NCBI GenBank assembly: GCA_964016885.1
Contig: OZ024743.1
Location: 89,466,001-89,530,000, forward strand
Origin: Eledone cirrhosa
Taxonomy: Eukaryota
Length of the DNA stretch: 64,000 nucleotides
Direction of reading: 5' to 3'
In this document: piece by piece, positions 167-40,615 of the stretch
Layout: each line of letters starts with the position of its first letter
How positions within the stretch are numbered: the first letter of the stretch is position 1
Position numbers and translations under genes: made by a program
The notes under the pieces: model-generated
Told to the model about the DNA's origin: nothing
Databases searched by the model: none
Seen by the model: the letters and a program-made list of their open reading frames with translations, nothing else

Positions 167-348
167 TATTTAATTAGAAATGAAACAACACAAAATATAA
201 CTACTCTATTACCAAAGGTTTCTGGATCCCAGACAATATTATTATACGTATGGATCGGTCATCAGACGTATAATAATATTGTCTGGGATCCAGAAACCTT
301 TGGTAATGGAGTAGTTATATTTTGTGTCGTTTCATTTCTAATTAAATA
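167..348. repeat. 83-bp-arm palindrome (167-249/266-348) centred on a hammerhead-like core; Penelope pLTR remnant
   Basis: Arms are reverse complements with 2 mismatches around a 16-nt loop. The minus strand reads CTGATGA-CCGATCC..GGATCCA-GAAA-CC-TTT-GG-TA. Directly follows (TA)n. Confidence 0.75.
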
Positions 349-520
349 GCTCTGTTCTATACATAGAGCACTCTTTTTTCTTTTGCTTTTCATTCGGAAT
401 TACCTAACCCACCACCACACACATATATATATAAATATATATATAAATATATATATATATATATATATATATATATATATATATATATATATATATATAT
501 ATATATATATATATATATAT

Positions 521-1117
521 ATATGAATAAATTTAGTCCTTCATCAGTGATCTTCCAACCTTCATTGGTATTTCATCGCTTTAAAGACCATATACCTCTG
601 GTTGTTGCGAGCAACGGCTAAAGAAAGTCGTTGGGACACGTAAATAGGGGGAACGAGCGAGACAGTAAACAAACAAAGATGGTAATGCAACGAAAAGTGA
701 GGAAGAAGGAGTCAAGTCCCTGAAATCGATGAACATAAGTTCTGTGAAATCGTGGACGACAGAGAATAAGGACCATCAAACCTAGTCGAAATGTGAGTGA
801 GGAAAGAATCTCGCACAGGTCAAACAGGAGGAAGTAGGAGAGGGAGTAGCAGAGAGTGAGTGAGTGAAAGTGTGAGGAAGAGGCTAACAGAGAGAATGAC
901 TAGTAGAGGGAGTAAAAGGAAGTGAGAGATACAGAGAAAAGAGGACGCAGTAAGAAAGAAACAGACGGGTCACAGTCTCGCTCGTTCCCCCTATTTACGT
1001 GTCCCAACGACTTTCTTTAGCCGTTGCTCGCACCAACCAGAGGTATATGGTCTTTAAAGCGATGAAATACCAATGAAGGCTGGAAGATCACTGATGAAGG
1101 ACTAAATTTATTCATAT
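521..1117. repeat. 143-bp inverted repeat (521-663/975-1117) around a purine-rich spacer; Penelope pLTR-like
   Basis: Arms differ at 2 positions. Both outer ends terminate in CTGATGA-AGGACTAAA, an HHR core plus truncated stem II. Confidence 0.75.
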
Positions 1118-1192
1118 GTAACCCATTTGCAACCACGCAGCACGCCATGTTTTCATATTTTTCATATATATATATATATATATATATATATA

Positions 1193-1576
1193 GTTTTGAT
1201 TAAAACAACAGGAGGCCGGACTGGTGATGTTCCTTCAAAGTTTTATTGTTACAAAAACACTATATATATTTTATTGACCTGGTTATATAAGATCCTGGCG
1301 ACATCATCAGGTTCGGATTACATAATTAGATAATCAATAAAGGAATTACGGCAAACACAAACAGAAAAAATATTTGATTCGAGGAAGGCCTGCGGTCTAG
1401 CATTTATGGTTGTGTATGTCGTAATTTCTCAATTGGTTAACTAATGAAGCAATCCTCTTTTGATGATGTCGTCAGGATCTTACGTAACCAGGGCACTGAA
1501 ATACATATAGTATTTTTTCAACAATAAAACTTTAAGGGAACATCACCAGTCCAGCCTCCTGTTATTTTAATGAAAC
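1193..1576. repeat. Older imperfect inverted repeat (~165-bp arms) with a degenerate HHR; pLTR-like
   Basis: caacaggaggccggactggtgatgttcc at 1206 is mirrored by ggaacatcaccagtccagcctcctgtt at 1537. A (C/T)TGATGA..GAAA motif lies in the arms. Confidence 0.6.
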
Positions 1577-36499: not shown

Positions 36500-36650
36500 A
36501 GTACATTCTTGATGATCTCATAGGAATGAAACAGTTATAGTCCTGTAGAAGCCATTTCTATATAAAATAAAGATGCTTATACTCTACCAACGTATAGAGT
36601 ACGTTCATTGACTGTGGTCACCTTCCGATCCCTTTCAGGAACCTACCTAT
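36500..36650 (+). mobile_element. pLTR fragment with degenerate HHR
   Basis: attc-TTGATGA-TCTCatagGAAT-GAA-ACAG-ttatagtc-CTGT-A-gaa, followed by (TA)n. Confidence 0.55.
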
Positions 36651-39339
36651 TATATATATATATATATATATATATATATATATATATATATATATATATA
36701 TACATATATATATACATATATATATATACATAAGGGTTTAGATAGATATCCAATGATTTCTATCTTGTTTACAATTTGCTCAACAAATTCGTTTGGAGCA
36801 TACACAAAGGAGTAATTGTAACACACACACACGCACACACACACACACACCCACACGCACACACACACACACACACACACACACACACACACACACACAC
36901 ACACACACACACACACACACATATATATATATAGTCCAAGGAGACAACAAACAGAGGTATACAATATCTTATTAGTTTCACGCTTTATATTGGAAAGAGG
37001 AAAGAGGAAAGTTCGACGTATCGGGCTTAAGCCCTTCTTCGGGAGTGTGAGTGAGTGTATGATAAATTATAAGGGGTGTATGTATATTGAAGTTTATAAT
37101 GTGTACGTGAAAAGTATCTAACTGTGATCTGTATGTATGCGTGTATGTATTATCGAGTATGTGTGAGGATAAAGGACGTAGTTTAGTGTGTGATAGAGAG
37201 CATATGGCAGAGCAAATTAAAGGAAGATGTGTGGCGCATTAAGATCAGGAGGAAGAAAGGTTTGTAAGGAGAACATAAGTTGTTGTTCCCTCCGCCAGCG
37301 TGAGTCAAGGGGTCCAGCATTGTGTGAGCCCGAAGACACTGCGGTGCTGAGACCGCGGAGACCTCTAAGCCGAAACCGCCTGATGCAGCGGTCGGGATTT
37401 TACATATATCTCTATGTATGTATATGTATATATATATATGTGTGTGTGGGGTAACAAGTTATCGTTATAGGTAATCCAGTTAGAGGTTGTGAGTACTCTG
37501 CGTCGTGGATAGTTTCAACGTACGGCTTTGTTTGACTCTACAAGATGTTTCCATAGTTAGGTAGCGAGTTCGCGACAATTCCTATGTAGGTTATACTTGG
37601 AGTAATAATAGTGAAAGAATTCTGAGGATTTGGTCAGAGGTAAATAATGTAATAGAGATCGAGTGACGCAACTTCGAGCGATTAGCGGCCTCTAGACTTA
37701 CCTGATCAATGAAACAATTGTTAATACTAATACCTGAAATAAAGCCCCTTGTTGTACAGCCAACCATGTTACACTTCATTCTTTCACTATATATATATAT
37801 ATATATATATATATGTGTGTGTGTGTGTGTGTGTGTATGTGTGTGTGTGTGTGTGTGTGTGTGTGTGTGTGTGTGTGTGTGTGTGTGTGTTTAAAATTGC
37901 TTATACGCAAACATTAAATCATTAAATAAAAATCGGAGATTCTAAGAAAATACAAACATGAACGGAAATTTACCATATCTCGGCAATGAAAGTGTTACAA
38001 CACACAGGCAATCAGAACATGGCACCTGCACAACGTAGGCAGAAGAATGCCAACTCTTCACCTTAACATCTGACCTCATAATTTAGCACTATTTTCCACT
38101 CTTCATACAACCCACACCTAACACATTCTAGACATTCCAGCTATATTCTTTTATGTCTCTCAACCCAAATGATTCACCTTGTTTTATAAACATTTATTTA
38201 TCTTCATCTCTGTCCCTCTCATATATATAAGTGTGTGTGCGTGTGTGTGTAGGTGTGTGTATGTGTGTGTATGTGTGTCTGCGTGTGTGTGTGTCTTTGT
38301 GTGAGTGTGTGTATGTAAATCTGGACCACTATCCATCCTGCAATATACCTATCTGATCTATCTAATTATCTATTTATCTATCTTCATCTCTCTCTCTCTC
38401 TCTCTCTCTCTCTCTATCTCTCTCTCTCTCTCTCTCTCTCTCTATATATATATATATATATATATATATATATATATATATATATATATATATCTCATAT
38501 ATATATATATATATGTGTGTGTGTGTGTGTGTATCTCGGGAATTTTACCCGCCCTAAATATATATGTGTGTATATAGATGTATGTATGTATGTGCACGCG
38601 TGTGTGTGTGTGTGTGTGTATGTGTGTGGTTTTCAACCTGTCCAGTTATCCATCCATCTATTTCTCTCTCTCTCTCTCTCTCTCTCTCTCTCTCTCTCTC
38701 TCTCTCTCTCTCTCTCTCATATATATATATATATATATATATATATATATATATATATATATATATATATATATATATATATGTGTGTGTGTGTGTGTGT
38801 GTGTGTGTGTTTGTATGTGTATGTGTATGTGTGTGTGTCTGTGTGTGAGTGTCTGTTTGTCTGTCTGTGTCTGTGTATATGTGTGTAAATCTGTCCAGCT
38901 ATCTAGCCATCTATTTATCTAACCACCTATCTACGTGTCAATTTTCCCGTCCATTTATCTGTCATTCTTTTGTTTCTTTTTATCTCATTATATTTTATCT
39001 TATATCTCCTCTTCTGTCCCCTTTCCGTTTTCTCTTTCTTTCTTTACATCTTACTTTTATCTCTAGTAACAGCTCATCATTTCCTGCCCTTACCCATTTC
39101 ACTAATATACCCAAAATGCACCATACTTTTTGTAATAACTTCCGTTTTCTTCCGTAACAGGAGAAGTGTGTTCCATGAGAACTAGAAGGCAGAAGAGAGT
39201 TTCATACAGCTATAGCATAATTACATGAAACAATTTGTCGCCATCTTACATCCTAACAGTTGATTACATTACACAAACACCACACACACACACGTGCATA
39301 CACATACTTCATATATATATATTAATATATATGTGTGTG

Positions 39340-39760
39340 ATGGCGCATGGCCTAGTGGGTAGGATGCTTGCTGTTGCATCGTAATCTAATCGGGTCAATT
39401 CCTGGACAGGCTGCTGTGTTGTGTTCTTGAGAAAAAACATTCTATTTCACATTAGTCAAGTACAATCAGCTGAGAGTGATTACCAGTTAGGAAGTTAATC
39501 CTGTGATAGACTTACGATTATAATCATCTAGGTTCGATTTGTTGACGAGGTGGCACGTTGTATCGTTGTATGATTCAGCAAGACACTTCATTTCATGTTG
39601 CTCCAGTTTCCACAGTTGAAAGGAAATGAGTATCAGCAGCAGCTGGACGTCAACCCTGCGATAGACTAGCGTCCTTTTCAGGGAGAGTCTTGTACTCTAA
39701 GTCACTTAACACCAAGGAAACCGGTGATAAGCACCGACCTGATGTGCCTTTGGCTTAGAA
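39340..39760 (+). mobile_element. Composite tRNA-head SINE(s), V-SINE-like
   Basis: ggcgcatggcctagtgggtagg head, two B-box-like segments and a ccctgcgatagactagcgtcc core. Confidence 0.5.
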
Positions 39761-40553
39761 CACACACACATATAACAAAGTATAACAACAAAGTATAACA
39801 ACATATATATGATCATTATACACAAACACAAAGCTTATATTTTTAAGCAGACTGTATTTTGATTTAGGTGTCATAGAAACTCTACATCGGATTTTAACAG
39901 CAATTCCGGGAGTCCAGGTCTGGTTATCATTTATTTTTTATCATATATTTTGTTTTGACCTGTTTAGCTTGATTTGGTTTTTGGCTTGGGTGGTTAATGC
40001 CTTCTTGACCACCTTTTCAGTTTTGTATGGCTTCTTAACACATTGTTTAGCTCTGGCTTTTAACTATGGAGCACTTTGCCAGTATCATTTCTGATTTTTG
40101 CGTTTCGCTTCGCTTTTCCTGCCCGCCGAAATGCGATTCTCGCTGAATCTTTATTTGTATATATATATATATATATATATATATATATATATATATATAT
40201 ATATATATATATAATAGAAGAGCACTGGAGGGTATATCCGTAGTAGTAGAGCACTGTAGTAGTAGAGTTCATGGGACGTGTTTGGTAGAAGTAGATCCAG
40301 AACAGTTAGTTCACCATACCGAATTGTTCACCTTATGTAGATCTTCAGACCGAGCTGAACTACTTCTATCTATCTATCTATCTATCTATCTATCTATCTA
40401 TATCTATCTATATATATATATATATATATATATATATATATATATATATATATATATATATATATATATATATATACTTAGGGTAAATATTGATGCAATT
40501 CAATTCAAGCACTCAACGTACTTTTTCCACATAGGAGTGACGGAGTAAATATC

Positions 40554-40615
40554 GAATAAGTAAAAGCGAAGTAGTTTCAGATGTTCATCTGAAACTACTT
40601 CGCTTTTACTTATTC
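40554..40615. repeat. Perfect 30-bp-arm palindrome with 2-nt loop at the end of a pLTR-like fragment
   Basis: gaataagtaaaagcgaagtagtttcagatg-tt-catctgaaactacttcgcttttacttattc. Confidence 0.85.

What the first reader, a model, noticed from the sequence alone, without database searches (positions are those of the whole stretch)
167..40615. Recurrent ribozyme-centred palindromes: Penelope pLTR remnants folding back at the hammerhead
Seen: several unrelated short elements, mostly abutting (TA)n, form near-perfect hairpins whose axis lies in or beside a hammerhead core. At 167-348 the CTGATGA core is in the loop. At 2251-2358 and 14683-14800 the axis is the stem II loop just upstream of GAAAC. At 40554-40615 the axis is AGATG-tt-CATCT-GAAA. 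At ~29224-29261 CTGATGA is duplicated in inversion. Established: Penelope-like elements carry minimal HHRs in their pLTRs and often show inverted pLTR arrangements. Inference: the ribozyme helices act as fold-back priming points during integration, yielding a stereotyped class of small palindromic inserts that could form DNA cruciforms or dsRNA hairpins.
Basis: partly seen in the sequence, partly recalled or inferred. Interest (0 to 1): 0.75.

Follow-up and report, generated by a model that had tools for sequence, protein, structure and literature searches.

The report
Penelope palindromes marking RNA start sites
These DNA hairpins are back-to-back pairs of short ends of Penelope-type jumping genes, a known insertion product, and in three of the four families they meet at the self-cutting RNA motif likely because the element's RNA begins there and the copying enzyme runs off its end, which would make an unsettled step of how these elements move testable.

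Summary
All five hairpins are real. They belong to four hammerhead-bearing repeat families (A-D). Family B traces to a Hydra-clade Penelope-like element with an RT/GIY-YIG frame and a U3-A8 ribozyme core. Each hairpin joins one tail-bearing and one tail-less end head to head in (TA)n (58 of 59 pairs), the known Penelope inverted-end layout.

Centring on the ribozyme holds for B (21 of 22 pairs) and C (9 of 11), partly for A, and fails for D (0 of 9) and other families (1-2 of 39).

Fold-back on ribozyme helices is not supported: 2 of 24 microhomology joints lie in a helix register, and either arm can reach further. The ends show a sharp upstream edge at a pyrimidine-A step about 30 nt behind a TATA-like box, even in a family where the edge lies 42 nt outside the ribozyme. 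Best reading: two separately primed cDNAs run off the RNA's 5' end and are joined. Against it: none of 23 long copies starts there, and no RNA was available. This scan noted the same reading elsewhere in this genome.

The parts
167..267 (-). Family A tail-less arm; carries CTGATGA (265-259), long stem II, GAAA to cut site (222-210); only 2 nt of the stem I 5' strand remain, so predicted inactive
263..415 (+). Family A tail-bearing arm, starting 13 nt after C3; 5-nt overlap (263-267) with the other arm, a non-native pairing also used in L031 and L033
2171..2307 (-). Family B tail-bearing arm; begins at the inferred RNA start (A, 18 nt before GAAA); lacks the U3-A8 core strand
2308..2358 (+). 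Family B tail-less arm, beginning 12 nt before GAAA (2320), ending in (TA)n 20 nt after the cut site
14683..14740 (-). Family B tail-less arm, beginning 15 nt before GAAA
14741..14877 (+). Family B tail-bearing arm, beginning 17 nt before GAAA (14758)
29122..29245 (-). Family C tail-bearing arm; begins at the inferred RNA start 6 nt before C3; whole type I hammerhead (core 29239-29233, GAAA to cut site 29220-29201), cut triplet mutated
29247..29261 (+). 15-nt inverted copy of the family C core running into (TA)n; ends short of the usual inner start site, so it may be a true snap-back
34578..34635 (-). Solo tail-less family B arm between (TA)n runs, beginning at the same inferred RNA start
36504..36563 (+). 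Decayed solo family C end beginning at about the core
40477..40587 (-). Family D tail-bearing arm, beginning 22 nt 3' of the parent's cut site; holds no ribozyme sequence
40586..40615 (+). Family D tail-less arm, beginning 26 nt 3' of the cut site

Best explanation
The hairpins are head-to-head pairs of short Penelope-like element ends inserted in (TA)n, likely made when both ends of one DNA cut primed copying of the same RNA from two fixed start points, and in families A, B and C they centre on the hammerhead probably because the element's RNA begins in or beside it. Steps: (1) shown: each insert is one tail-bearing plus one tail-less pLTR end in (TA)n, and family B belongs to a Hydra-clade element. 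(2) Inferred: the element's endonuclease cuts both strands; one DNA end primes at the outer start (about +138 from the RNA start in B), the other at the inner start (about +61). (3) Inferred: both cDNAs run to the 5' end of a sense RNA, a transcription start about 30 nt behind a TATA-like box, and lose 0-7 nt or more. (4) Shown for the joints, inferred for the process: the two cDNA ends are joined by 0-8 nt of chance microhomology (17 nt through a non-native local hairpin in two B pairs) or short fillers. The ribozyme is a bystander that shares the pLTR with the promoter. In D the loose cluster just 3' of the cut site may reflect ribozyme-cut RNA.
For: Geometry: 58 of 59 distinct pairs in A-D are tail plus tail-less (one duplicate locus dropped; the exception has a SINE inside its long arm). 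Long inverted B copies with ORF have the same ends. Two primers: the tail-less arm reaches further 5' in 29 pairs, the tail arm in 14, 16 tie within 2 nt; in L299, L317 and L334 the tail arm stops deep in the tail while the other arm runs to the edge. One template: arm haplotypes agree in 32 of 33 classifiable pairs of 41, against 0.21 expected at random. Edge shape: B, 87 of 151 arms end 12-19 nt before GAAA and 15 pass; C, 11 of 18 core-bearing arms end 4-7 nt before C3, none at 8-59 nt, 3 pass; A, 5 of 28 end at 13-14 nt with a tail downstream. Seven B inserts that start 159-348 nt into the body also never pass the edge: 4 stop at it, 3 earlier. Promoter signs: TATAAATA or CATAAATA at -29/-30 in three C subfamilies with differing spacers; TATTTAT or TATTTAA at -31/-29 in B; in an independent family (f10) 13 of 20 arms end 39-48 nt upstream of the core, 30 nt behind TATAAAA. 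Chance of such a box in a 5-nt window is 0.03-0.06 (motif set chosen after the fact). Weak: all 8 B arms ending exactly at the A have a G before it, as a copied cap would give. Literature: a purified Penelope protein cuts and extends both strands, starts at two internal sites near the pLTR-ORF junction, gives shorter products on 5'-truncated RNA, and does not need ribozyme cleavage (PMC11167929).
Against: No RNA start was observed. None of 23 B copies whose tail runs on into a long body starts at the edge; 20 extend upstream through the ribozyme, so long copies must come from other RNA (read-through, multimer, circle, or a strand transfer), which I could not show. Family f6 has a sharp edge (13 of 18) with no TATA box; A has only a weak one; D, f2, f5 and f12 have scattered ends. 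In B the TATA-like box sits in stem II, so its conservation is confounded. The cap-G count excludes T and C by construction (14 arms end one base further), G is also common at other end points, and 6 of the 8 can be read as templated by the other arm. B arm ends are more symmetric than chance (16 of 22 within 4 nt, 8.2 expected), which fold-back or apex erosion also predicts. Arm concordance could come from later gene conversion or from subfamilies active at different times. D. virilis Penelope is reported to use a TATA-less internal promoter (PMC2377424, passages). An ORF link was shown only for B.
Confidence: 0.6

Rival explanations
1. One reading: one cDNA folds back on a ribozyme helix and copies itself.
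For: Axes in B and C lie inside the ribozyme. Arms share haplotypes and some private changes. One A joint uses an extended helix I. Two or three C arms (L048, L152, L234) can be read as helix I snap-backs, and the window's 15-nt C duplicate looks like a snap-back.
Against: 2 of 24 joints lie in a helix register. The tail-less arm is more often the longer. Solo arms stop at the same edge. Edges lie outside the ribozyme in f10 and f6. The fixed outer end of the second arm needs an extra cut.
Confidence: 0.12
2. The RT stays bound to the pLTR RNA fold at which it started, and that bound fold acts as a template boundary, as in telomerase; the ends mark a protein-RNA block, not the RNA's 5' end.
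For: Explains why 20 of 23 long copies pass the second ribozyme while about 90% of short ones stop. The in vitro ribozyme needs the protein to cleave (PMC11167929).
Against: Edge position varies from inside stem II to about 70 nt upstream of the core. It does not explain TATA spacing or the pyrimidine-A step. A naked-structure stall is excluded by D versus C.
Confidence: 0.15
3. A few master palindromes spread as non-autonomous units and their apices eroded during copying or by cruciform repair.
For: One joint type recurs in many B copies, B arm ends are symmetric, and arms are concordant.
Against: At least six B haplotypes each have palindromes and most also have intact parents. Joints are mostly different from each other and include fillers. 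Inserts with 159-348 nt of extra body share the edge. The copying enzyme would have to unwind a 50-bp RNA duplex.
Confidence: 0.08
4. The edge is a splice acceptor or branch point (B and C edges sit at YAG steps; a D. virilis intron ends at helix I).
For: YAG in the B and C parents; PMC4209133 reports the intron end at helix I in D. virilis.
Against: Modal ends keep the AG rather than begin after it. A and f6 edges have no AG. Some arms keep upstream sequence.
Confidence: 0.05

Closest known systems
Insertion unit of endonuclease-bearing Penelope-like elements: pLTR, adjacent inverted 5'-truncated copy, one-sided tail (PMC3846280 abstract, passages and Discussion; PMC8557442 passages)
   Same: Head-to-head inversion, tail on one arm only, palindrome at the joint, AT-rich target.
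   Different: Here the whole insert is 110-250 nt without ORF, the tail is 60-90 nt rather than 30-40, and there are tens of thousands of copies. PMC3846280 explains the palindromes by self-priming on an antisense template; the data here point to two primers on a sense RNA.
Hydra clade of C-terminal EN+ PLEs (PMC8557442 section 11)
   Same: Family B parent: RW[KR], DKT, CxCx5C linker, CxxC and CxH around E and N, C-terminal GIY-YIG-like motifs, hammerhead, (TA)n target.
   Different: U3-A8 core, long stem II and a full stem III in B. No tree was built. A, C and D are not linked to an ORF here.
PLE hammerheads, including the U3-A8 variant and dual opposite-strand motifs 100-700 bp apart (PMC4209133, parts 1-2 of 4)
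   Same: Type I motifs in pLTRs, mostly in truncated copies; the U3-A8 covariation was already described in Schistosoma Cercyon.
   Different: In the parts read, the paper does not map inversion points. Most short copies of A, B and D here lack a complete ribozyme.
Anolis Poseidon element in vitro (PMC11167929, parts 1-2 of 4)
   Same: Two internal RT starts bounding the tail, both strands cut and extended, predicted dimer, run-off length set by the RNA 5' end.
   Different: Different clade; inversions and their joints were not addressed in the parts read.
LINE-1 twin priming and retroviral strong-stop DNA (recalled, not read)
   Same: Second primer on the same RNA gives an inversion; a short cDNA that ends at the capped 5' end.
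   Different: Twin priming inverts non-overlapping sequence, whereas here both arms copy the same stretch. There is no tRNA primer or RNase H step in view.

Membership tests
EN+ Penelope-like element (family B) | Single ORF with RT and C-terminal GIY-YIG endonuclease next to the pLTR | tested here: met
   546-aa open frame P0001 with FDIES, YRDD, VIYQC..YIGLT; 1461 homologues at E<=1e-20, unnamed. Pfam, NCBIfam and PDB gave no informative hit, so the domains are read from motifs.
EN+ Penelope-like element (family B) | Partial tandems: pLTR and tail continue into the ORF start | tested here: met
   80 exact tail-to-body junctions in G000; ATG 230-232 nt after the inferred start.
EN+ Penelope-like element (families A-D) | Inverted 5'-truncated copy with tail on one end only | tested here: met
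   58 of 59 distinct pairs.
EN+ Penelope-like element (families A, C, D) | Link to an RT/EN ORF | not tested
   No ORF in the 1.5 kb upstream of the ten A and D copies translated; C not translated; D copies that run on past the tail (L252, L254, L255) were not followed.
Hydra clade | RWK and DKT motifs | tested here: met
   LRWRTFF and HSDKTG in 5 of 5 N-terminal pieces.
Hydra clade | CxCx5C linker; CxxC and CxH beside conserved E and N | tested here: met
   CNCPDRSSC at 400, CNLCSEE at 498, CKH at 526 of P0001.
Hydra clade | Absence of CCHH; placement in a PLE phylogeny | not tested
   No reference alignment or tree was made.
Hydra clade | (TA)n target | tested here: met
   Flanks.
Type I hammerhead | Core strands plus stems I-III with NUH cut site in parent copies | tested here: met
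   A, B (U3-A8), C and D parents; stem I changes on both sides between C subfamilies, GCTTC/GAAGC and GATTC/GAATC. No Rfam match.
Type I hammerhead | Complete motif in the window's hairpins | tested here: not met
   A lacks most of the stem I 5' strand, B lacks the core strand, C has a mutated cut triplet, D has none.
Type I hammerhead | Self-cleavage | not testable with these tools
   Needs an assay.
Non-LTR retrozyme | Tandem units each with a whole ribozyme | tested here: not met
   The window's inserts are two truncated arms; true arrays occur elsewhere (L077, L086, L098).
MITE / DNA transposon | Constant length with two equal terminal inverted repeats | tested here: not met
   Unequal arms, variable joints and an RT-bearing parent.

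The most novel reading that the evidence does not exclude
Hydra-clade Penelope elements begin reverse transcription in the 5' pLTR of a capped sense RNA that starts inside or beside their own ribozyme. Both ends of one cut copy that RNA from two fixed sites, and only a strand transfer or a circular RNA yields long copies. The tens of thousands of tiny palindromes are then failed 'strong-stop' products that record each family's transcription start to the nucleotide. In family B the start would cut the ribozyme's core strand out of the transcript.
Probability: 0.35. Interest if true: 0.75.

Novelty: new member of a known kind. Interest (0 to 1): 0.5.

Why it matters
How Penelope-like elements make their inverted ends, which RNA strand they copy and what the ribozyme is for are stated as open in PMC3846280 and PMC8557442. 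These tiny inserts are abundant natural products of that reaction (44,803 and 31,535 exact 23-24-mer hits for B and C). If their edges are RNA starts, they show a sense template and two-ended priming, and they give exact coordinates to test by 5' RACE or in vitro. They also seed roughly one short perfect palindrome of B or C per 50 kb (25 in 1.26 Mb), a possible source of hairpin RNA or fragile sites, untested here.

Tried and rejected
Two pattern searches for a family B parent with a canonical CTGANGA core found nothing; the parent has U3-A8. Rfam scans gave microsatellite-driven miRNA noise and no hammerhead. Pfam, NCBIfam and PDB did not name the protein; the protein Atlas gave no answer. 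No RNA holder listed; the four contig sets laid cannot show starts. A first hairpin script timed out. The automated all-family mapping was contaminated by a SINE in two references; for the count of 39 pairs I dropped all cross-family pairs, four artefact pairs in f9 and one duplicate in f7, so that count is rough. Two apparent cross-family joins (L035, L153) did not hold on inspection; no join between different families was found among 59 pairs. A general stall at stable RNA structure was rejected. Ribozyme cleavage as the source of the ends was rejected for A, B and C, whose ends lie upstream of the cut; it stays open for D. Old divergent B subfamilies without a parent reference were left out of the nucleotide-level counts. 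More unbiased A and C copies could not be obtained (searches gave coordinates only). A-to-I editing and small RNAs were not examined.
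Full report
OBSERVATION. The five hairpins exist as written and fold far beyond shuffles (z -9 to -26). The window lies in G000, 3.0 Gb in 1796 contigs, evidently an animal genome (inference). I sampled 120 evenly spaced 10-kb stretches. With the window they hold 197 local hairpins against 0 in a block-shuffled control and 137 type I hammerhead-like motifs against 1 in a reversed control. 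The hairpins fall in four families: A (167-415), B (2171-2358, 14683-14877, solo 34578-34635), C (29122-29261, solo near 36504) and D (40477-40615). Exact-match counts in G000 for 23-25-mers at the GAAA end are 1,100 for A, 44,803 for B and 31,535 for C. D is young: the 40 copies scored are identical over 103-104 nt.

PARENTS. Searches for a CTGANGA parent of B failed. The random sample then showed copies with TTGANAA, and a 24-mer with that core has 910 exact hits. This U3-A8 covariation is already described (PMC4209133). The B parent has stem I CCCC/GGGG, a stem II of 54-56 nt, and a 5-bp stem III. About 0.9-1.3 kb upstream ends an RT/endonuclease frame with the Hydra-clade marks listed in PMC8557442 section 11: RWR, DKT, CxCx5C, CxxC and CxH. 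Profile libraries did not name it; 1461 unnamed homologues exist. A, C and D parents carry complete type I motifs; C subfamilies differ by a two-sided change in stem I. Their ORFs were not recovered.

GEOMETRY. I mapped arms onto uninverted parents. B came from unselected loci; A and D from 30 loci each, chosen by similarity to the tail-bearing 3' part. Of 59 distinct head-to-head pairs, 58 join a tail-bearing to a tail-less arm. That is the published Penelope unit: inverted truncated copy plus one-sided tail (PMC3846280; PMC8557442). Long inverted copies with ORF sequence have the same two outer ends, so the hairpins are the short end of a continuum.

IS THE AXIS AT THE RIBOZYME? Both ends lie inside it in 21 of 22 B pairs, 9 of 11 C pairs, 5 of 17 A pairs (11 of 17 if 14 nt upstream is allowed) and 0 of 9 D pairs, and in 1-2 of 39 pairs of other families (rough; exclusions under Tried and rejected). 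By hand from the listings of the first 100 hits, 19 of 21 facing B pairs are 9-42 nt apart and 20 of 22 facing C pairs within 500 nt are 23-59 nt apart. With 60 further B loci taken in genome order, 15 of 151 arms pass the ribozyme (16 by eye) and 87 end 12-19 nt before GAAA. The stop rate is 0.138 per nt there and 0.0013 per nt upstream of the core. So the clustering is real in the two most abundant families and not general.

ARE HELICES THE PRIMERS? No. Of 24 joints with at least 2 nt of overlap, one uses an extended helix I and one lies on the stem II diagonal but outside the helix (registers read). The rest use chance overlaps, blunt joins or fillers copied from nearby. Two or three C arms outside that set may be helix I snap-backs. 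A tail-bearing cDNA that folds back must reach at least as far 5' as its copy, yet the tail-less arm reaches further in 29 pairs and the tail arm in 14, and in L299, L317 and L334 the tail arm stops more than 100 nt short. Two separately primed cDNAs fit. They share haplotype in 32 of 33 classifiable pairs (0.21 expected), which points to one RNA or one source locus, unless gene conversion followed. Against a pure two-primer model, B ends are more symmetric than chance (16 of 22 within 4 nt, 8.2 expected); A, C and D show no clear excess.

WHAT SETS THE EDGE? Not helix strength: D has the strongest stem II and no stop, C the weakest and a sharp edge. Not a general roadblock: 20 of 23 B copies with a long body pass through the upstream ribozyme. 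Not cleavage in A, B or C, whose ends lie upstream of the cut. The distributions have a sharp upstream edge and a downstream tail, as run-off plus trimming would give. The edges fall on pyrimidine-A steps: TT|AGTCC or TC|AGTAC in B, CC|AGATT or CC|AGCTT in C, CC|ATAAC in A. Three C subfamilies keep TATAAATA or CATAAATA 29-30 nt upstream and B has TATTTAT or TATTTAA at -31/-29. In family f10, not part of the finding, the edge is 42 nt outside the ribozyme at CC|AGATG, exactly 30 nt behind TATAAAA. TATA and initiator consensus sequences are recalled, not looked up. f6 has a sharp edge without a box, A's box is weak, and D, f2, f5 and f12 are scattered. The possible cap-derived G is weak evidence. 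In D, about a dozen ends lie from 5 nt before to 28 nt after the cut site, loosely consistent with cleaved RNA. Short-read contigs show about a twenty-fold step in summed word depth across the B edge and strand-switch joints 5-20 nt before GAAA; this is no copy number and no RNA evidence.

MECHANISM. Shown: composition, geometry, end distributions, joints, haplotype sharing. From the literature: both strands cut and extended, two internal starts bounding the tail near the pLTR-ORF junction, product length set by the RNA 5' end, cleavage dispensable (PMC11167929). Inferred: two DNA ends prime on a sense RNA, run off at its start, and are end-joined. Unexplained: no long copy starts at the edge (0 of 23).

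LITERATURE SEEN. PMC11167929 parts 1-2 of 4; PMC4209133 parts 1-2 of 4; PMC3846280 abstract, passages and Discussion; PMC8557442 passages and section 11; PMC2377424 passages; bioRxiv 10.64898/2026.07.22.740005 part 1 of 5. No supplements were read; those of PMC8557442 and PMC11167929 may bear on clade membership and on RNA ends. Six searches listed no paper that, by title, abstract start or the parts I read, maps Penelope inversion points to the ribozyme or to a transcription start; subscription papers are mostly not covered. Earlier notes of this scan report similar palindromes and, for another piece of this genome, the same RNA-start reading.

VERDICT. New member of a known kind; interest 0.5.

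Noticed in passing
window 26180-26470 (+): Uninverted copy of family f10 with a U3-A8 hammerhead (core at 26372) and TATAAAA 30 nt before the family's modal 5' end (about 26330); used as the independent promoter test.
   Followed up: yes
window 518-1120: Inverted pair with 149-nt arms, 97% complementary, 305-nt spacer, each arm ending in CTGATGAAGGACT close to the outer end with no GAAA strand found; other copies in G000. Possibly another Penelope-type end or a MITE.
   Followed up: partly
window 1188-1582: Older inverted repeat, 180-nt arms, 81% complementary, beside (TA)n; not assigned to a family.
   Followed up: no
window 34230-34560 (+): A further pLTR family with a minimal core at 34450 and a decayed cut site, sharing a (TA)n run with the solo B arm.
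   Followed up: partly
window 35010-35230 and 14405-14585: Hammerhead-bearing end related to family f12, with a homologous tail piece at 14405.
   Followed up: no
L237, L239, L241, L247, L248, L250, L257, L259 (also L240, L212, L219): 8 of 30 very young family D copies carry the genome's abundant SINE-like repeat inserted at the ATTATT 5 nt after the ribozyme cut site, each with a different 5' truncation. A strong target preference or template switching during D copying. About 20 copies of this repeat lie in the window (e.g. 8374-8580).
   Followed up: partly
L077, L086, L098, L074: Tandem arrays of 310-nt and 468-nt units with whole hammerheads, some as large head-to-head palindromes: retrozyme-like.
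   Followed up: no
G000:C3:214146639-214147755 (listing): Five family B tail-to-body junctions at 273-274 nt spacing: perhaps a retrozyme-like tandem derived from family B.
   Followed up: no
L264, L272, L273, L274, L279, L280, L293: Family B inserts whose 3' ends lie 159-348 nt beyond the tail, inside the body: further, variable RT start sites.
   Followed up: partly
L025: One family B palindrome with tails on both arms, among the 30 loci selected for likeness to the window's palindrome.
   Followed up: no
window 50594-52947, 4164-4539/41587-41962, 17822-18264/47424-47881: Degenerate tandem arrays and two pairs of older dispersed repeats (73% and 79% alike).
   Followed up: no
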